DNA from: a virus | Taxonomy: Duplodnaviria; Caudoviricetes | Strand: one strand, 5' to 3' | Length of the DNA: 64,000 bases | IMG/VR virus record: IMGVR_UViG_3300020577_008610 | Span: 96,001-160,000 of that record | Part shown: one piece after another, positions 7,470-55,664 of the stretch | Numbering within the stretch: position 1 is the first letter of the stretch | How the letters are laid out: each line of letters begins with the position of its first letter | Program-made: the position numbers and the translations under genes | Notes under the pieces: model-generated | Database searches by the model: none | The model's input: only the letters and a program-made list of their open reading frames with translations | What the model was told of the DNA's origin: nothing

Positions 7470-7994
7470 ATGAACGAGAAGGCAGAAGAAATCCCCGTGT
7501 TATGGAAGAGCGCCGACGGCAAGCGTTTTGCCCAGGAGCATGTCTTCAACTGGGTTGCCTCCACGAAACTAGACCGTGAGAACGACTACCAGGTCATCGT
7601 GGGCACGGACTCACACAGGCACAGTGATCAGTTCAGGTTTATTACTGTGATTTGCGTATACCGGGTGGGCAAGGGAGGCAATTACTACTACCTGGAGAAC
7701 TACGAGCCTCGGGAAAACTACGTCCAGGCAACACGTGGCAAGCGGGTGAAGGGCAACCAGAAGCTCCGAATGTTCAACGAAGTTGTTCGGTCTGTTGAAA
7801 TGGCCACTAACCTGTTTGATACAACAGGAGTGCTTCCGGTAGTCCACATCGACGCTTCTCCTTCTCACCGGAAGGAATTTACATCAGAATTTAGTGATCA
7901 GCTCAAAGGTTACGTTGCCTCTAATGGATTTGAGTGCGTCCTGAAGCCAAATTCATTTGTAGCTAATGCTATAGCTGATAAGCACAGCAAATAG
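7470..7994 (+). CDS. RNase H-like YkuK-family protein
   Basis: VIVGTDS, YRVGKGG, RMFNEV.RS, VHIDA, ADKHSK. Confidence 0.8.
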   Translation: MNEKAEEIPVLWKSADGKRFAQEHVFNWVASTKLDRENDYQVIVGTDSHRHSDQFRFITVICVYRVGKGGNYYYLENYEPRENYVQATRGKRVKGNQKLRMFNEVVRSVEMATNLFDTTGVLPVVHIDASPSHRKEFTSEFSDQLKGYVASNGFECVLKPNSFVANAIADKHSK

Positions 7995-8076
7995 CTGCGC
8001 AACCGAGCAATTCCATCAATCCAATCCCAGGGTCATATAGACACAATCGAAGAACCTGAAAGAAGGAATTCTTCGA

Positions 8077-8382
8077 ATGTCAACAGATATTGACCGTACT
8101 AAGCTTGAAACTGCTATTGAGCGTGAGGTCTACAAGTTTGTGTGTCAACTCAAAGAACACATGTACGACCACACGATGATCTACCTGAACCGAACTCAAT
8201 CTGATGTTGACCGAACGGTTGCAGACCGGATCCTACAGATTGCCAAGAACGCAGTCGAAGATGGGTTCATGACCAAGGTGGACTTTTTCAAGAAGGCCAT
8301 TGATGAGCCTTTGAATCAGTTCACGGAGACCGATTCAAGCCCTTTACCACCTGGAGAGTTAGGGAAGAAAGGGAGAAAGTAA
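8077..8382 (+). CDS. Hypothetical protein
   Basis: ORF with AAGGA RBS. Confidence 0.65.
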   Translation: MSTDIDRTKLETAIEREVYKFVCQLKEHMYDHTMIYLNRTQSDVDRTVADRILQIAKNAVEDGFMTKVDFFKKAIDEPLNQFTETDSSPLPPGELGKKGRK

Positions 8383-37817: not shown

Positions 37818-38390
37818 CTAGATGCTGGCTCGGGTGAAGGATTTCACTTCAACCTTCTCACCGCATTTGGCTGAGAATGCCTTGATGGCCTGTCCAACCG
37901 TCTGCTTGGAATCTAGCACAAACGGCTGCTCGGTCAAGACCTTTTCGGAGAAAACTTTCTGCATCTTGCCCTGGAAGGCTTTCTCCAGCTTCTCGCCCGT
38001 CATTCCACGCTTCTCCAGGTCGGAACGAGCAATCTCCTGCTCCGTGAGCAAGTCCTCGTCATCCATGTCTGCCACCGTCCTGGCAATCGGGTTGGAAGCC
38101 ATCACGTGCATGGCGATGTTGTTGGCAAGCTCCTGGAACTCCGGGGTCCGAGCAACGAAGTCCGTCTCACAGGCAAGCACTACCATCACACCCACACTCT
38201 TGTCGTGGTGGATGTAGGAGCCAACCACGCCAGCTTTGGCCGACCTTCCAGTGAAGCTGTCAGCCTTTGCCTCGCCCTTCTTCCGAAGGATCACCGTGGC
38301 CTTCTCAACGTCTCCATTCGCTTCCTTGAGGGCGGAAACGCATGCAGACATACCGGCACCAGTTCTGGCTCTGAGTTCTTGGATAGACAT
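37818..38390 (-). CDS. tsf: Elongation factor Ts (short form)
   Basis: ELRARTGAGMSAC..AL, LACETDFVAR, IAMHV, LTEQPFV; true start 38390 because upstream is a tRNA. Confidence 0.93.
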   Translation of the reverse strand: MSIQELRARTGAGMSACVSALKEANGDVEKATVILRKKGEAKADSFTGRSAKAGVVGSYIHHDKSVGVMVVLACETDFVARTPEFQELANNIAMHVMASNPIARTVADMDDEDLLTEQEIARSDLEKRGMTGEKLEKAFQGKMQKVFSEKVLTEQPFVLDSKQTVGQAIKAFSAKCGEKVEVKSFTRASI

Positions 38391-43942: not shown

Positions 43943-44247
43943 GGTGCTGTCTTTTCTTTCTTGATTTGATTGTGGATCTCGAAGAGTACATCCGAAAGAG
44001 CTTCGTGGACCTGCTGGTCTTTCAAAGTTCTCTTGATTTGCTCCTCGGTAATTGTAGCTCCCAGTTCTTCCGAGACGTTCTTAACTAGACGACCCAAGGA
44101 ATTCATGAGAACATTCCGTGCTGTAGCATGATTCATCTGGTAGCCCGCAGCCGACATGATTTCGGCAATCCGGCGAAAATCAGTGCCTTCCTCCAGGGTA
44201 ACGTACTTGGTGGCAGCAGTCTTGATAGTTTCTGGCGTCTTAGACAT
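43939..44247 (-). CDS. Probable HTH protein
   Basis: DFRRIAEIM..MNHATARN. Confidence 0.6.
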   Translation of the reverse strand: MSKTPETIKTAATKYVTLEEGTDFRRIAEIMSAAGYQMNHATARNVLMNSLGRLVKNVSEELGATITEEQIKRTLKDQQVHEALSDVLFEIHNQIKKEKTAP

Positions 44248-45061
44248 TGGATCCTTCTCCGGCAGAGTCTTGAATCGAAGGCACTTTTTGGATCACATCA
44301 TACCGCAAGAGAATGATATTCCTTTCTCGTTCTGGTAGCTTCAGAAGAGCTCTTTTCACCACTTCAACCAAGGTATGGTAGTCGGAAACAGAATCGCTGC
44401 TAACATCCAACTCATCCACCAACAAGTCCTTGATGGAGAGACCAGTAGATATGCCTTTCCCATGCTGAGCAGGAATGGCGGTATCCATGGAGGAAATCCA
44501 CCTGGATTTCAGGGAGTGGTTGATGCTATTGAGCATTTTCTCGGAAACACCGAGTTCTGCCGCATTCCCCTCAACCAAATCCTTAAAGCCGAGATTCTTC
44601 TCCTTCATGGTCTTCAGAAGCTTGTTCTGAGCTGTCCGGATGTGTGAAGGTACATGGAGCTGAGGATCCTGGGAAAGAAGGTAGTTGTTGATAGCATGGC
44701 GTATCCACCACGTAGCGTAGGTACTGAACTTGAACCCACGGTGAGGGTCAAACTTCTCCACAGCTGACAACAAGCCGAAAGAACCCTCTTGGAGAAGATC
44801 TTCCCGAATACGTTGGTGTTCCTTCTTCTTGGAATAGAATTTGTTGACCACAAAAGTGACCAACTTGCAGTTCCGGTTCGCAAGAACATTCCTCAGATTC
44901 TTGTCTTGTTTCGCCAACTTGCCTTTGGCATCCAATTCTTTCGTCTCGGAATACCGGAAAAACAGCTTCATGTCCTCGTCTCGATCATCCAGATTCTTTG
45001 AAAGAGCCGTAGCCGCTGCTTGAGTTATCACTGATGTTGATGTTTGCTGATATGATTCCAT
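44240..45061 (-). CDS. Sigma70-family RNA polymerase sigma factor
   Basis: DLLQEG.FGLL.AVEKFDPHRGFKFSTYATWWIR; LPERER.II.LRY then ends. Confidence 0.93.
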   Translation of the reverse strand: MESYQQTSTSVITQAAATALSKNLDDRDEDMKLFFRYSETKELDAKGKLAKQDKNLRNVLANRNCKLVTFVVNKFYSKKKEHQRIREDLLQEGSFGLLSAVEKFDPHRGFKFSTYATWWIRHAINNYLLSQDPQLHVPSHIRTAQNKLLKTMKEKNLGFKDLVEGNAAELGVSEKMLNSINHSLKSRWISSMDTAIPAQHGKGISTGLSIKDLLVDELDVSSDSVSDYHTLVEVVKRALLKLPERERNIILLRYDVIQKVPSIQDSAGEGSNV

Positions 45062-45805: not shown

Positions 45806-46066
45806 ATGACAACCCTGATTACCGACAAGCTTAAGGCCCTCGGAGGCCGTTGGGACTCGGCCCGCAAGGGCTGGATGGTCCCGGACGAAAAGGCTACTGA
45901 AGCCCAGGAGCTGGTAAACTCGGCATTCGGACGTCTTCTGGGTTCTGTACACGGTGTGGAGACGATTGTGGTGGTACGGCCTACCACTGCAACTATGAGT
46001 AAGGTGTTTCCTACTCACAAAAGGTTCAGTCGGTGTGACACTTTGGCTTCGGAGATGCTCCCTTAG
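45806..46066 (+). CDS. Small hypothetical protein (KALGGRWD..W motif)
   Basis: TTGACG..TAAGAT promoter, AGGAG RBS. Confidence 0.65.
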   Translation: MTTLITDKLKALGGRWDSARKGWMVPDEKATEAQELVNSAFGRLLGSVHGVETIVVVRPTTATMSKVFPTHKRFSRCDTLASEMLP

Positions 46067-46129
46067 CTCAGTGGTTAGAGCAGCCGCCTTCAAATCGGTT
46101 GGTCGTGGGTTCAAATCCTACAGGGAGCG
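46057..46129 (+). tRNA. Opal suppressor tRNA (anticodon TCA)
   Basis: Acceptor GCTCCCT/AGGGAGC, D GCTC/GAGC, loop CT-TCA-AA (46090-46092), short variable loop, G73. Confidence 0.85.
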
Positions 46130-46133
46130 CAAG

Positions 46134-46595
46134 ATGCGTAAAACATGGACTTCATTTAAAGATGACGAATTCATCCCTATTGTCGATGAGGCCCTTCAAG
46201 AGTTGACCAGAGAAGAGTGTGACCTCGAAAAGGAGCCAAATTTGTCCTACATGTTTTCCCGTTATCCCAAATGGGAAAAGGTAAATCTTCTCTATGTGTG
46301 CAAAAATGCTAAGAATGGGAGCAAGAAAGGGATCATCAATCTTGATGTCGCCGACAGCATTGTCCTTCTTGACAAGGAATGCCTTGTTGTCAATTATTGC
46401 AAAGTAGTAGCTTTTGAGCCTCGCAGCGAATGGGTTGTGTTCAATTACATAGTCCAAGCCCACTGGAAAGAGGGTAAACTTCAAGTTTGTGCTGATATTG
46501 CCCCAAAAGATGAAGATTTGGAAGAACTTGACCCTCTGTTTGAACATTACTTGAGCTTGGAAGAAACGACCACACGTTGCGTGTGCAAGACATGA
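46134..46595 (+). CDS. Hypothetical protein
   Basis: ORF directly after the tRNA. Confidence 0.55.
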   Translation: MRKTWTSFKDDEFIPIVDEALQELTREECDLEKEPNLSYMFSRYPKWEKVNLLYVCKNAKNGSKKGIINLDVADSIVLLDKECLVVNYCKVVAFEPRSEWVVFNYIVQAHWKEGKLQVCADIAPKDEDLEELDPLFEHYLSLEETTTRCVCKT

Positions 46596-46828
46596 TGGTT
46601 ACCATGCTCATCCAGCTCAAAGGCAAGACCAAGACATAGATGAGGTGAAAGAAGCTGCTGGACTTTTGAATTGCTACAAGCTAGACATCAATGACCCCAA
46701 AGTCCAAAAGGTATTCCATGACTTTGGTGGTCAATTTGACATCAAGCAAAAAACCATTTTTACGATTAGCTCATACGAGAAGCAACACCGGAGCCCGGGA
46801 ATGGGCCAAGAAGGGAAGAGAGAAGAAT

Positions 46829-47194
46829 ATGGCATCCAGCAAAAAAACCAAAAAACGTACTTTTGCCTGCGGACATAAAGGTTATGGCATTTTGTGTCAC
46901 CGATGTGCCCAGGCAAATGACCTGGAGACTAAGGCTAATGAGTTGGCCCAAGCAATCAAGGCTCAGGCGAAAACCCTCCCCGCCTTCGTAGTGGTCCAAA
47001 AGGCCGCCAAGGCTACGGAGACGGCTCCGGAATTGGAGTCGGGCATTCTGATCAAGGGTGGGGGTCAGCGCATCTTCATCGGGACCAATAACAAGGACCA
47101 GGAGACAGCCCTGACCCAGGCTGTGGCTACCATGCGGGAGCATGCTACCCGCCTGGAGGCACGGCCAGAGAACAAGGTTCGTGTCTTCTCGTAA
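46829..47194 (+). CDS. Hypothetical Zn-binding protein
   Basis: CGH.G.G..CHRC. Confidence 0.65.
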   Translation: MASSKKTKKRTFACGHKGYGILCHRCAQANDLETKANELAQAIKAQAKTLPAFVVVQKAAKATETAPELESGILIKGGGQRIFIGTNNKDQETALTQAVATMREHATRLEARPENKVRVFS

Positions 47195-47374
47195 CTGGGA
47201 TGACTCCGGCATTATCTGGGTATAATAGCAAATGTCGATGAATCCTCCTTGCGGAACCTTGATTGAGGGTGAAGACCCTGCTCTGACCATGAAAAAAGAA
47301 TTGGAAATCGACAATAACTGAAGGCAGCCGATATCTATCGGCGCTACTCTTGAAAGGTTGACAAAACGATACAT

Positions 47375-47463
47375 GGAGAGTTGCTAGAGCCGGGCAATAG
47401 TCCTGTTTGCTAAACAGAGGACAGCCTTAATTGGCTGCGGGGGTTCGAGTCCCTCACTCTCCG
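47375..47463 (+). tRNA. tRNA-Ser(GCT)
   Basis: GGAGAG/CTCTCC acceptor, TT-GCT-AA, long arm. Confidence 0.88.
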
Positions 47464-47471
47464 CTAAGAAA

Positions 47472-47505
47472 GAAACTCCAGGATCTTCGGGTTCTGGAGT
47501 TTTTA
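47472..47505 (+). terminator. Intrinsic terminator
   Basis: AAACTCCAGGATC-TTCG-GGTTCTGGAGTTT plus T-run. Confidence 0.85.
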
Positions 47506-47807
47506 CATTTGAACTTTAGTGATTAGTTTGCTCGTCAAGACCGAAAGGGATGTCAAAGAGGCTTTTCCTCAACAGGAAGCCAAGTATGCCCGTAGGCTTG
47601 CCCAGAAGGCGCAGGAAGCCGAGTTCAAGGATCTGAAGGACTATCCCATCTCCCTCCAGCTTTCGAGCCCTGGAAGGACTCCCAGACTCAAGGAAGAATA
47701 CCTCGGAGACCTTACCTTCGATGCTTTCAGGGAGCGAAGGGCAATTGGAAGGAAGTGAGCGGCTATCTTGAGAATCGTTCTCAGGGTGAGAAAATCCAAG
47801 GGGGAAA

Positions 47808-48791
47808 TTAGGAGAACAGGTGGCGACAGATGGCCGACCCTCTATGTTCTAGGTGCTTCCATTTGGTCTTGAAGGAATCCGTGTTGGTACCGCCAAAAAG
47901 TGTTGCATCGGAATGTACCTCGGCTAGACCAGCAAGCAGCAGAGCTGCTTCTTCAGGTCTTTTGCTGAACTCTTTCGCTTCTTTAGCGGATAAACAGTGA
48001 AGATCCATGTCCATCTCGATTAGTCGAGCTACCTCTTTCTGCTCGGGATAGAGTTCACGGAAAATCTGAGCGGATATCTTGGCATGATTGGGGTAATAGA
48101 CCTTGCCCTCAGCGTCAACCTCACGGCAGAAAGGTTTGCCGCAATCATGCCATAAAGCGTACTTCTCAAGGATGTGATCCGGAGGAAGTTTCTCTTGAAG
48201 CTTCTTGCCATAGGCCATGAGCCACTGTGGAAATCTCCATTGTTTCTGGTAGGAGTAGTGAGGATCCCGAAGGAACTGAAGAAGATCAAGCAGGTGTTCT
48301 TTGACAGATCCGCCGTGTTGAAGTATGTTCTGTCCAGAAGTCTGCTGGGTATTCTCCATGGCTTCCACCACTTCAAACTTCCTCTTCAGACGCTCCGGAG
48401 CACCTTCATTCACCCTTTTCCCAGCCAGAGGAAGACCAGAACAAACCTTCTTTACGTCAGGCCCAGGAACTATTGAAATGGCTGTCAACTCATTCCCAAT
48501 GTCAGGCTCTCGGAACTCGGCAAACCGAATCCCCTTTTCTTTGAGCTTCAGAGAGAATTCAATGAGCTTCAGCTCATTGGGAACGTTCAGGCAGATTACG
48601 GAGTTGCTGGTCCGATACCACTCTTTCCACTCTTCAGGGAAGGATGCTGCAAACTCCATGGCAGCGTGTGTTGTCTGTGGAACTTGGTAGCCGGTAGGTA
48701 GGTCAGAATGGGTCACAACATAGAGTTTGTGGCCAGTCTGTTCAGACAGGGGGAGTTGAACAAGAATTCAAGCTTCGTGGTTGGTGTTCAT
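47808..48791 (-). CDS. PTH2-like peptidyl-tRNA hydrolase fused to HD domain; in-frame TGA at codon 8
   Basis: ATG 48791 MNTNHEA*ILVQ..KLYVVTHSDL..Q..HAA..FREPDIGNELTAI; HD domain LWHDCGK..NHA. Confidence 0.75.
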
Positions 48792-48865
48792 TTCTCTTCT
48801 ATTTTGTAGATATTCGGGACGGTTGTCTTGATGTTTCGGATCAGAAAGAGTTAGAGTTCATCTCA

Positions 48866-54994: not shown

Positions 54995-54998
54995 GTAG

Positions 54999-55071
54999 CA
55001 GGGGTGCTCAGATTTGAACTGAGACGAGAAGTTTTGGAGGCTTCCATGCTGCCAGATTACATCACACCCCT
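54999..55071 (-). tRNA. tRNA-Trp(CCA)
   Basis: Cloverleaf, G73. Confidence 0.88.
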
Positions 55072-55589: not shown

Positions 55590-55664
55590 TGGCTCACAGG
55601 GAGGGAGTCGAACCCCCACCGAGGCAAGTTACAGCTTGCTGCCCTACCATTGGGCGACCTGTGA
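55590..55664 (-). tRNA. Asn-like tRNA with 6-nt anticodon loop
   Basis: T1-A72, G73, CCA; loop CTGTAA. Confidence 0.7.

What the first reader, a model, noticed from the sequence alone, without database searches (positions are those of the whole stretch)
46057..48791. Opal-suppressor tRNA plus a peptidyl-tRNA hydrolase/HD gene gated by an in-frame UGA: candidate read-through switch
Seen: a clean class-I tRNA with anticodon UCA (46090-46092). About 2.6 kb away, the Pth-HD gene has an ATG at 48791 with a purine-rich leader, seven codons (MNTNHEA), TGA at 48770-48768, then the same frame continues ILVQ..KLYVVTHSDL. The conserved first strand of PTH2-like enzymes (KLYVV) lies upstream of the GTG the ORF caller used, and only ATT/CTG lie between the TGA and this strand. 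Other genes end normally at TGA, so this is not whole-genome recoding. Inference: full-length Pth is made only when UGA is read through (suppressor present or RF2 limiting), tying peptidyl-tRNA recycling to termination status, analogous to RF2 autoregulation.
Basis: partly seen in the sequence, partly recalled or inferred. Interest (0 to 1): 0.87.

Follow-up and report, generated by a model that had tools for sequence, protein, structure and literature searches.

The report
Suppressor-tRNA-gated phage tRNA-hydrolase gene
A large phage that otherwise uses the normal genetic code keeps a UGA stop as codon 8 of a tRNA-hydrolase/HD-phosphohydrolase gene and carries its own UGA-reading tRNA; about a hundred related phage genes share this layout with stop codon and anticodon always matched, so the enzyme is probably made only when that tRNA overrides the stop.

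Summary
A 74-nt class-I tRNA with anticodon UCA lies at 46057-46130 (+). On the minus strand, a purine-rich leader and ATG (48791) are followed by seven codons (MNTNHEA), TGA (48770-48768) and ATT. The same frame then runs into a PTH2-fold domain fused to an HD domain.

- **Real stop:** five independent assemblies carry the identical TGA.
- **Standard code:** 11 of 73 long ORFs end in TGA. This is the only such gate in the 189 kb held.
- **Conserved design:** 97 unique homologous PTH2 or HD frames, fused or separate, start with ATG, mostly 2-4 codons, then an in-frame stop. Unrelated ORFs in the same loci do so 9-12% of the time.
- **Matching tRNA:** wherever a clear suppressor tRNA lies within 10 kb (39 loci), its anticodon matches the gate: 31 TAG-CUA, 7 TGA-UCA, 1 TAA-UUA, and no clear mismatch.
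- **Within this gene's own clade:** all three stops occur, and one orthologous tRNA backbone carries UCA or CUA accordingly.

Best reading: a read-through gate that depends on the suppressor tRNA. Why these enzymes are gated is unknown, and nothing is experimental. I found no published description. This scan has noted the same design before on other DNA.

The parts
46057..46130 (+). Opal-suppressor-type tRNA. Anticodon UCA at 46090-46092, 74 nt, class I, G discriminator, no encoded CCA.
   Evidence: ARAGORN. Rfam tRNA 66.4 bits. Orthologues in L106, L107 and L109 (UCA) and L114 (CUA) share the acceptor, D and T arms and show compensatory changes in the anticodon stem.
48792..48800 (-). Purine-rich Shine-Dalgarno-like leader (AGAAGAGAA) directly upstream of the ATG.
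   Evidence: Read. All nine relatives of the fused clade have AAGGA, AGGAG or GAAGAG-type stretches within about 15 nt before their ATG.
48771..48791 (-). Seven-codon leader of the gene (ATG AAC ACC AAC CAC GAA GCT = MNTNHEA).
   Evidence: The N-H-E motif is kept in relatives through synonymous changes (AAC/AAT, CAC/CAT, GAA/GAG), so this frame is translated.
48768..48770 (-). The gate: in-frame TGA at codon 8.
   Evidence: Identical in five independent assemblies (L086, L102-L105). Orthologues have TGA (L106, L107, L109-L112), TAA (L113) or TAG (L114) at the same place.
48729..48767 (-). Post-gate codon ATT and a 13-residue linker (ILVQLPLSEQTGH) with no ATG, GTG or TTG.
   Evidence: ATT follows the stop in 48 of 97 gates, and base +4 is A 73, G 17, C 7, T 0. 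In relatives the linker varies from 3 to 19 residues, always in frame. Residues 1-13 of the model are disordered.
48444..48728 (-). PTH2-fold domain, starting with strand beta-1 (KLYVVT).
   Evidence: Pfam PF01981, 27.9 bits against a cut-off of 23. AlphaFold2 model with pLDDT 92.8. Foldseek TM 0.70-0.76 to Pth2 structures 2zv3, 1q7s, 3erj, 1wn2 and 1xty.
48714..48716 (-). The GTG used by the mechanical ORF call. It is not the real start.
   Evidence: It lies inside beta-1 (model residues 23-28), has no purine-rich stretch upstream, and homologues align upstream of it.
47811..48380 (-). HD-type phosphohydrolase domain (WHDCGKP motif), related to the HD and body region of class II tRNA nucleotidyltransferases.
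   Evidence: Pfam HD 18.8 bits, below the cut-off of 22. HDIG and TIGR02692 partial matches. PDB profile matches to 3wfo-3wfs. Foldseek matches 3wfo-3wfs. H215 and D216 are invariant.
47808..47810 (-). TAA stop of the gene.

Best explanation
The gene at 48791-47808 (minus strand) is translated from its ATG. Ribosomes normally terminate after seven codons at UGA. When the phage's own tRNA(UCA) (46057-46130) is made and charged, it inserts an amino acid at codon 8. Translation then continues in the same frame through a disordered linker into a PTH2-fold hydrolase fused to an HD phosphohydrolase. Both domains belong to families that act on tRNA 3' ends.

The tRNA and the early stop therefore form a two-part translational gate, a natural counterpart of synthetic amber-suppressor AND gates. 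The design is ancient and modular. In relatives the PTH2-like and HD genes, fused or separate, each carry their own early stop, and the stop is whichever codon the phage's suppressor reads.

Shown here:
- the anatomy of the gate;
- its conservation;
- the stop-anticodon covariation;
- standard code elsewhere in the contig;
- the folds of both domains.

Inferred:
- that the tRNA is expressed, charged and decodes the gate;
- that read-through is the limiting step;
- the physiological logic. My preferred guess is that output of a tRNA-end hydrolase and repair enzyme is scaled to the level of stop-codon read-through, alongside the phage's tmRNA. This is a guess only.
For: 1. The stop is real. The same TGA is found in five independent assemblies.

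2. The gate is conserved. 94 of 115 homologous PTH2 or HD ORFs in non-redundant IMG/VR loci are preceded by ATG, 1-8 codons and an in-frame stop. The background in the same loci is 9.1% (TAA), 9.5% (TGA) and 12% (TAG) of other ORFs. The final set holds 97 unique gates, 76 of them with 2-4 leader codons.

3. Stop and anticodon match. Per locus: 31 TAG gates with tRNA(CUA), 6 TGA gates with tRNA(UCA) plus this window, 1 TAA gate with tRNA(UUA), and no clear mismatch. The tRNA is on the same strand in 37 of 38 loci, at a median distance of 834 bp.

4. This gene's own fused clade (48-84% identity) uses all three stops at the same position. TGA goes with UCA (L106, L107, L109, L110), TAA with UUA (L113) and TAG with CUA (L114).

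5. One orthologous tRNA backbone (acceptor GCUCCCU) bears UCA in four phages and CUA in L114, with compensatory changes in the anticodon stem.

6. Stop choice is not neutral. TAG makes up 86 of 97 gates but only about 10% of ORF ends in those loci, where TAA is 61%.

7. The context fits suppression. Base +4 is A in 73 and never T in 97 gates. From memory of E. coli work, A favours suppressor tRNAs and U gives the strongest termination.

8. The leader frame is translated. N-H-E is kept through synonymous changes, and linker indels always keep the frame.

9. The contig uses the standard code. Long ORFs end TAA 38, TAG 24, TGA 11. No TGA lies inside coding sequence other than this gate, and this is the only such gate.

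10. The GTG alternative start would cut strand beta-1.

11. In three of five whole genomes with no suppressor known near the gene beforehand, a matching tRNA(CUA) was found (pT24, G001, G003).
Against: - No expression, charging, proteomic or reporter data exist.
- TGA still ends ordinary genes of this phage (11 of 73 long ORFs) and of its relatives. An efficient suppressor would therefore extend many proteins, so suppression must be weak, timed or tolerated.
- 33 of 72 gated loci show no suppressor within 10 kb. In two whole genomes checked only weak tRNA-like candidates were found.
- In this phage the tRNA lies 2.6 kb away on the opposite strand and has a C31-U39 mismatch.
- Phylogenetically independent contrasts are few. 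On the HD tree there are 4 gate changes and 3 of 3 concordant pairs, with a sign test of p = 0.25.
- ATT follows the stop in half the gates, which also fits re-initiation at AUU.
- L010 has TAG gates with only an atypical 'UCA' tRNA call nearby.
Confidence: 0.75

Rival explanations
1. Termination followed by re-initiation. The seven-codon frame is an independent upstream mini-ORF. After release at UGA the ribosome re-initiates at the adjacent AUU (or the CUG further on), so the enzyme is made without any suppressor and the tRNA is unrelated.
For: ATT is the codon after the stop in 48 of 97 gates, and ATN in 57 of 97. All eight TGA or TAA members of this clade have stop-ATT. AUU is a known rare bacterial start (infC; from memory).
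Against: - 40% of gates are followed by codons that cannot initiate, such as GTT, CTT, AAC and ACC; L114 has TAG GTT.
- Re-initiation does not care which stop is used. Yet gates are 89% TAG where TAA ends 61% of ORFs.
- The stop always matches the neighbouring suppressor anticodon.
- The leader peptide N-H-E is under amino-acid-level selection.
Confidence: 0.08
2. There is no switch. The early stop is simply a tolerated recoded codon, either an incipient or relic code change or a way to hold expression permanently low. It sits in a disordered leader where any residue is accepted, and it has no sensing or timing role.
For: The gate lies in a disordered N-terminal segment. The suppressors of relatives differ in likely identity. 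A few relatives have extra internal TAGs in these genes (L010, L043, L079). Borges et al. propose that acquiring a suppressor precedes recoding.
Against: The position is conserved at codons 2-9 in two unrelated domains and across at least four stop switches. Only these gene families are gated: the excess over background in the loci is accounted for by PTH2 and HD ORFs. No other TGA is found in coding sequence across 189 kb.
Confidence: 0.08
3. A release-factor sensor that needs no suppressor. Read-through by the near-cognate tRNA-Trp rises when RF2 is limiting, so the gate reports host termination capacity. This is the second clause of the first reader's proposal.
For: UGA is the leakiest bacterial stop (from memory). 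The phage also carries tRNA-Trp(CCA) at 54998-55071. The products belong to translation-rescue-type families, and a tmRNA gene is present in the contig.
Against: This does not explain why TAG, TGA and TAA gates each come with the matching suppressor tRNA, nor why TAG, the least leaky stop, dominates. No release-factor gene was found in the contig.
Confidence: 0.05
4. A pseudogene or an assembly error.
For: None beyond the presence of an in-frame stop.
Against: Five assemblies agree. The frame stays intact for 319 codons after the stop, with a high-confidence fold. The feature is conserved in about 100 relatives.
Confidence: 0.01

Closest known systems
Stop-codon-recoded phages with their own suppressor tRNAs (codes 15 and 4; crAss-like, Lak and Agate phages; Borges et al., 10.1101/2021.08.26.457843)
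   Same: A phage-encoded suppressor tRNA decodes in-frame TAG or TGA in phage genes, and this is proposed to act as a post-transcriptional regulator. That paper also notes a standard-code phage that has acquired a TGA suppressor.
   Different: In recoded phages, 26-71% of genes (structural and lysis genes) carry many in-frame stops and standard-code coding density collapses. Here the code is standard. One gene carries one stop at a fixed position in its leader, and the gated families are tRNA-end enzymes. That paper does not mention peptidyl-tRNA hydrolase.
prfB (RF2) autoregulation through an early in-frame UGA
   Same: An early in-frame UGA in a translation-factor gene makes full-length synthesis depend on failure to terminate there.
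   Different: prfB needs a +1 frameshift with an internal Shine-Dalgarno stimulator, and its product is the factor that reads the stop (from memory). Here the frame is unchanged, a dedicated tRNA matches the stop, and no feedback from the product to the stop is shown.
Programmed read-through in viruses (Qbeta A1 protein, MuLV gag-pol)
   Same: A fraction of ribosomes decode a stop and extend the protein in the same frame.
   Different: Those cases use host near-cognate tRNAs at the end of a complete protein, to make a minor C-terminal extension (from memory). Here the stop precedes the whole functional protein and the virus supplies the cognate suppressor.
Lambda bar minigenes and Pth
   Same: Two-to-eight-codon ORFs with an SD, an ATG and a stop. 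Translation of such minigenes generates peptidyl-tRNA, which is the substrate of peptidyl-tRNA hydrolase (from memory).
   Different: bar minigenes stand alone and are toxic in pth-defective hosts. Here the mini-frame is fused in frame to a PTH2-like gene, and its stop covaries with a suppressor tRNA.
Synthetic suppressor-tRNA AND gates (supD tRNA plus an amber-interrupted T7 RNA polymerase gene)
   Same: Output protein appears only if both the mRNA and the suppressor tRNA are expressed (from memory).
   Different: Those gates are engineered. This one is natural, conserved, and uses all three stop codons.
Archaeal and eukaryotic Pth2 (2zv3, 1xty, Bit1 1q7s); jumbo-phage PTH2 noted by Iyer et al. 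2021 (PMC7824862)
   Same: Same fold (TM 0.70-0.76) and above the Pfam threshold. PTH2 genes were already noted in jumbo phages as ribosome-rescue candidates.
   Different: The Lys of the GK..AQ..HA motif aligns with Tyr (GYQVPQ..HA) in this family. The domain is fused to an HD domain. That paper mentions neither the gate nor suppressor tRNAs.

Membership tests
PTH2 peptidyl-tRNA hydrolase (PF01981) | Sequence match above the curated Pfam threshold | tested here: met
   27.9 bits against a cut-off of 23, residues 14-108 of P0002. NCBIfam Pth2 equivalogs score far below their cut-offs: 16.9 against 126, and 14.7 against 82.
PTH2 peptidyl-tRNA hydrolase (PF01981) | Pth2 alpha/beta fold | tested here: met
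   AlphaFold2 model with pLDDT 92.8. Foldseek TM (target) 0.70-0.76 and rmsd 2.2-2.9 to 2zv3, 1q7s, 3erj, 1wn2 and 1xty.
PTH2 peptidyl-tRNA hydrolase (PF01981) | Conserved Lys of the G-K-x-x-A-Q-x-x-H-A motif and a conserved Asp (the catalytic role is recalled from memory) | tested here: inconclusive
   In the profile alignment to 2zv3 the Lys column holds Tyr (GYQVPQ..HA), while Gln, His and Ala are kept. An acidic FrEPD motif (E95 and D97 invariant) lies near the Asp column. No residue-level structural superposition was done.
PTH2 peptidyl-tRNA hydrolase (PF01981) | Hydrolyses peptidyl-tRNA | not testable with these tools
   Needs biochemistry.
HD-domain phosphohydrolase / HD region of class II CCA-adding enzymes | H...HD...D metal-binding motif and a match to the family models | tested here: inconclusive
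   H215 and D216 (WHDCGKP), H159, H236 and D261 are invariant. Pfam HD scores 18.8, below the cut-off of 22. HDIG scores 23.3, below 27.6, and TIGR02692 scores 31, far below 438.8. PDB profile matches to 3wfo-3wfs have E about 1e-3, and Foldseek also matches 3wfo-3wfs.
HD-domain phosphohydrolase / HD region of class II CCA-adding enzymes | Nucleotidyltransferase head domain (PF01743) of a CCA-adding enzyme | tested here: not met
   It is absent from this protein and from the held contig. This is not a CCA-adding enzyme.
Nonsense-suppressor tRNA | Canonical cloverleaf tRNA whose anticodon pairs with a stop codon | tested here: met
   ARAGORN reports anticodon UCA. Rfam tRNA gives 66.4 bits. The arms are conserved and the anticodon stem shows compensatory changes among orthologues.
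Nonsense-suppressor tRNA | Is expressed, aminoacylated and decodes UGA | not testable with these tools
The amino-acid identity is unresolved: G73 here, and mixed discriminators among 57 relatives.
tRNA-Sec / selenocysteine recoding | Long variable arm and extended acceptor/T stack, with a SECIS element after the UGA | tested here: not met
   The tRNA is 74 nt and class I. Its only match in Rfam is the general tRNA model; no tRNA-Sec hit was listed.
Stop-codon-recoded phage (code 4) | Many genes with in-frame TGA, and fragmented genes under the standard code | tested here: not met
   Of 297 TGAs with open flanks, only one has coding signal on both sides, and that one is a junction between two genes with an ATG one codon after the stop. 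TGA ends 11 of 73 long ORFs. There is a single gate in 189 kb. Only about 48% of the genome is held.
prfB-type autoregulatory in-frame stop | +1 frameshift at the stop, and a product that recognises that stop | tested here: not met
   The coding frame is the same before and after the TGA. The product is not a release factor.

The most novel reading that the evidence does not exclude
The cassette is a closed control loop and not a simple on-switch. Read-through at the gate measures the balance between charged suppressor tRNA and release factor. The PTH2-like/HD enzyme made in response then acts on tRNA 3' ends, either deacylating or trimming the suppressor tRNA itself, or releasing peptidyl-tRNAs from ribosomes that ran past stops. 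Together with the phage tmRNA, this would let the phage hold stop-codon read-through in the infected cell at a set level. It would be a virus-encoded homeostat for translation termination.
Probability: 0.15. Interest if true: 0.92.

Novelty: new variant of a known kind. Interest (0 to 1): 0.8.

Why it matters
Suppressor tRNAs are common in large phages that use the standard code, and what they are for is an open question. The XacN1 authors searched for targets of its two amber suppressors and found none (PMC5852040).

This finding offers a specific, conserved target: the phage's own PTH2-like and HD genes. They are locked by an early stop of exactly the type the tRNA reads. If confirmed, it would matter in four ways:
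- It would be a natural two-component translational switch, tRNA plus stop, that has evolved with all three stop codons.
- It would link stop-codon read-through to tRNA-end and ribosome-rescue enzymes during infection.
- It suggests a route by which phages move from the standard code to recoded genomes.
- It shows that gene callers systematically truncate or fragment these genes, as in pT24, Yersinia phage fHe-Yen9-04 and Salmonella phage Arash.

Several cultured phages carry the gate, so the idea can be tested directly.

Tried and rejected
- **Whole-genome recoding.** ORF coverage under TGA-, TAG- or TAA-sense codes did not discriminate. A codon-score test then showed the standard code.
- **Other gates in this contig.** The raw scan was noisy. 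After scoring coding potential, only this gene remained.
- **Avoidance of the cognate stop as a terminator.** Counts from 20-kb loci were confounded by spurious ORFs and GC content. No clear depletion was seen, so I make no claim.
- **Sequencing runs.** Independent assemblies were used instead.
- **Close relatives in JGI metagenomes.** The search mostly gave short fragments.
- **Bacterial and archaeal genomes.** A scan of genome contigs for relatives found none.
- **Promoter and terminator scan.** Results were no better than shuffled sequence.
- **Suppressors elsewhere in five whole genomes.** A pattern search found them in three. LR745206 and G002 yielded only sub-threshold tRNA-like candidates.
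- **Amino-acid identity of the suppressor.** The nearest tRNAs in the genome are Val, Arg and Ile at 70-74% identity, which is uninformative.
- **Selenocysteine, frameshift, pseudogene and artefact readings.** All rejected (see membership tests and rivals).
- **Other gated families in the loci.** Clustering of the remaining gated ORFs found only canonical PTH2 paralogues and one uncharacterised 311-322-residue family, which I did not follow up.


Full report
**1. What is there**

ARAGORN finds 17 tRNA genes in the window. One is a 74-nt tRNA at 46057-46130 (+) with anticodon UCA at 46090-46092. Rfam's general tRNA model scores it 66.4 bits against a gathering score of 29. It is a class-I cloverleaf with a G discriminator, one C31-U39 mismatch and no encoded CCA. 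It is therefore an opal-suppressor-type tRNA, not tRNA-Sec.

About 2.6 kb away on the minus strand, the sequence reads AGAAGAGAA, then ATG (48791), then AAC ACC AAC CAC GAA GCT, then TGA (48770-48768), then ATT CTT GTT. The same frame stays open for 319 codons to TAA at 47810-47808. The first canonical start after the TGA is the GTG at 48716.

**2. What the protein is**

Pfam gives PTH2 (27.9 bits, cut-off 23) for residues 14-108 after the stop, plus a sub-threshold HD match. NCBIfam gives partial HDIG and CCA-tRNA-nucleotidyltransferase matches.

An AlphaFold2 model built on 43 homologues is confident (pLDDT 92.8, pTM 0.88). Residues 1-13, which are the leader, the gate residue and the start of the linker, are disordered. 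Strand beta-1 is KLYVVT at residues 23-28, so a start at the GTG would delete most of beta-1.

Foldseek matches the N-terminal domain to Pth2 structures 2zv3, 1q7s, 3erj, 1wn2 and 1xty at TM 0.70-0.76. It matches the C-terminal domain to the tRNA-processing enzymes 3wfo-3wfs and to HD proteins.

In the profile alignment, the Lys of the Pth2 GK..AQ..HA motif is Tyr in this family. The substrate may therefore differ from classical peptidyl-tRNA. The contig has no nucleotidyltransferase head domain.

**3. The stop is real and the code is standard**

Five independent assemblies carry the identical leader and TGA: ERZ795046, three JGI samples and SRR23702464.

The window lies in a 189-kb IMG/VR contig estimated to be 48% complete. 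Its 73 long ORFs end in TAA (38), TAG (24) and TGA (11). Of 297 TGAs with open 40-codon flanks, only one has coding signal on both sides, and that one is a junction between two genes with an ATG one codon later.

After scoring coding potential, this gene is the only ORF that combines a short ATG leader, a boundary stop and a coding segment before any start codon. The pattern 'ATG, 1-8 codons, TGA ATT, ORF of at least 50 codons' occurs once on both strands.

**4. The gate is conserved in relatives**

tblastn against cultured phages showed homology running upstream of the annotated starts. Reading the DNA showed the same layout in each:
- ATG AAA TAG ATA in Tenacibaculum phage pT24;
- ATG AAC AAT TAG ATT in the 635-kb phage LR745206;
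- ATG AAG TAG ACC in XacN1.

Eighty IMG/VR loci were then fetched with a profile of the family. The PTH2-like and HD domains occur as PTH2-HD fusions, as HD-PTH2 fusions or as two genes. In most loci each frame is preceded by an SD, an ATG, a few codons and an in-frame stop.

In the non-redundant loci, 94 of 115 such ORFs are gated: 88 by TAG and 6 by TGA. Among all other ORFs of at least 80 codons in the same loci, the rates are 9.1% (TAA boundary), 9.5% (TGA) and 12% (TAG). Several of the 'ungated' calls turned out on inspection to be gated too.

Clustering the remaining gated ORFs found only canonical PTH2 paralogues and one uncharacterised family. The gate is therefore specific to these enzymes.

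The final set holds 97 unique gates:
- Stop type: 86 TAG, 10 TGA, 1 TAA.
- Leader length: 2-4 codons in 76.
- Base +4: A 73, G 17, C 7, T 0.
- Codon after the stop: ATT in 48.

**5. Stop and anticodon change together**

ARAGORN on the loci finds suppressor-type tRNAs next to many of these genes. The per-locus counts are as follows:

| Gate codon | Suppressor within 10 kb | Loci |
|---|---|---|
| TAG | tRNA(CUA) | 31 |
| TGA | tRNA(UCA) | 6, plus this window |
| TAA | tRNA(UUA) | 1 |
| any | none found | 33 |
| any | clearly mismatched | 0 |

The matching tRNA is on the gene's strand in 37 of 38 loci, at a median distance of 834 bp.

The sharpest evidence comes from this gene's own clade of fused PTH2-HD orthologues at 48-84% identity, fetched by exact-protein look-up. 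Six of them (L106, L107, L109-L112) have a 5-8-codon leader ending ..N-H-E-x, then TGA ATT. Four of those six have tRNA(UCA) within 10 kb. L113 has TAA ATT with a tRNA(UUA) 1.7 kb downstream. L114 has TAG GTT with two tRNA(CUA) 1.7 kb downstream.

The suppressor backbone of this window (acceptor GCUCCCU, G73) recurs in L106, L107 and L109 with UCA and in L114 with CUA. Its acceptor, D and T arms are nearly invariant. Two base pairs in its anticodon stem change in a compensatory way. So an orthologous, selected tRNA switched its anticodon along with the gate.

On a tree of the HD domain, the gate codon changes at least 4 times and the anticodon 4 times. All three phylogenetically independent contrasts agree, but three are too few for a sign test (p = 0.25).

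Of five whole genomes with no suppressor known near the gene beforehand, three have a tRNA(CUA) (pT24, G001, G003). Two gave only weak candidates.

**6. Mechanism**

The ATG has a purine-rich SD-like stretch in every member. The leader's N-H-E is kept through synonymous changes. The linker between the stop and beta-1 varies from 3 to 19 residues but always keeps the frame. The simplest reading is one protein, made from the ATG when the stop is decoded by the cognate phage tRNA.

Three points argue against a suppressor-independent mini-ORF with re-initiation:
- The choice of stop is far from neutral. TAG makes up 89% of gates where TAA ends 61% of ORFs.
- T is never found at +4 and A dominates. 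As I recall from E. coli work, that is the context that weakens release-factor action and favours suppressor tRNAs.
- 40% of gates are followed by codons that cannot initiate.

The gate sits in a disordered leader, so whichever amino acid is inserted should be tolerated. That fits the mixed discriminator bases (A, G, U, C) of the 57 suppressor tRNAs.

**7. What is not known**

TGA still ends ordinary genes here, so suppression must be partial, timed or tolerated.

The purpose of gating precisely these two enzyme families is inferred only. They belong to families that act on tRNA 3' ends. Phage tmRNA genes lie beside many cassettes and one lies in this contig. The contig also has an EF-Ts homologue. 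I therefore favour a coupling of rescue and repair capacity to the level of read-through. A feedback loop on the suppressor itself remains possible.

**8. Novelty**

Full-text searches found no description of early-stop-gated PTH2 or HD genes.
- The XacN1 paper states that no targets of its two CUA suppressors could be identified. XacN1 ORF364 carries the gate.
- Iyer et al. note PTH2 in jumbo phages but mention neither the gate nor suppressor tRNAs.
- Borges et al. describe genome-wide recoding, not single gated genes.

Earlier notes of this scan describe the same design on other genomes, with TAG, TAA and TGA versions. My tests here agree with them. They add the three-stop series inside one orthologous clade and the orthologous tRNA that switches its anticodon.

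Cultured phages with the gate and a matching tRNA are available for experiments: pT24, XacN1, Yersinia phage fHe-Yen9-04, Acinetobacter phage ME3 and Salmonella phage Arash.

**9. Verdict**

The best explanation is a read-through gate that depends on the suppressor tRNA (confidence 0.75). It is a new variant of the known use of phage suppressor tRNAs and programmed read-through, and it is of high interest.

Noticed in passing
G000:C1:25395-25745 (minus strand; outside the window): The contig has a phage-encoded tmRNA gene with tag peptide GADALQMAA. Phage tmRNA genes also lie next to the gated cassette in many relatives (L013, L014, L016, L018, L019, L039, L057, L064, L066).
   Followed up: partly
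window 37827-38243 (-): A phage-encoded EF-Ts homologue (PF00889, 93.8 bits). This is another translation factor in the same region, and it is also present in relatives L102 and L114.
   Followed up: partly
window 55590-55664 (-): ARAGORN reports a tRNA-like gene with an abnormal two-base 'anticodon' (tRNA-???). It may be one of the tRNA-bodied RNAs with odd anticodon loops that another note of this scan describes.
   Followed up: no
window 44240-45061 (-): A 273-residue protein with sigma-70 region 2 (PF04542, E 4.5e-15), conserved next to the cassette in relatives L102-L110. It is probably a phage sigma factor.
   Followed up: no
L079 about 7887-8120; L010 9980-10240; L043 11140-11300: A few relatives carry extra TAG codons inside the HD or PTH2 domain itself. 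In L079 the TAG sits at a nearly invariant Ser column (QHGE-TAG-V), although its CUA tRNA is class I. This is direct evidence that these stops are read as sense in some phages.
   Followed up: partly
L150 7304-7378 (Salmonella phage Arash, OQ632216.1): The tRNA annotated as tRNA-Phe is called as anticodon CUA by ARAGORN. It lies 0.5 kb downstream of the HD gene that follows a TAG-gated PTH2-like gene (ATG CTG TAG AAC), whose deposited CDS is a 50-residue fragment.
   Followed up: partly
L004 1492-1515 (Xanthomonas phage XacN1 ORF364): The HD-PTH2 gene of XacN1 is preceded by ATG AAG TAG in frame, with an ATG four codons later. The XacN1 paper reports two CUA suppressors for which no target could be found.
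   Followed up: partly
L009 about 9027, L034 about 5803, L061 about 9026: A third ORF family of 311-322 codons, directly upstream of the PTH2-like gene in AT-rich phages, is also preceded by ATG..ATG TAG in frame. It has an internal ATG about 17 codons in, so this could be chance.
   Followed up: no
L051 1661, L054 9591, L063 8728, L082 8342: Canonical PTH2 paralogues that keep the G-K motif are also TAG-gated (SD, ATG, 1-3 codons, TAG, ATH). The gate is therefore not restricted to the Tyr-variant family.
   Followed up: partly
L148 105-177 (-) (G002, the genome of L023): A tRNA-like sequence with a CUCUAAA loop and an enlarged D region (Rfam 25.4 bits, below threshold; not called by ARAGORN) lies within 10 kb of a TAG-gated gene. 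It may be an atypical suppressor.
   Followed up: partly
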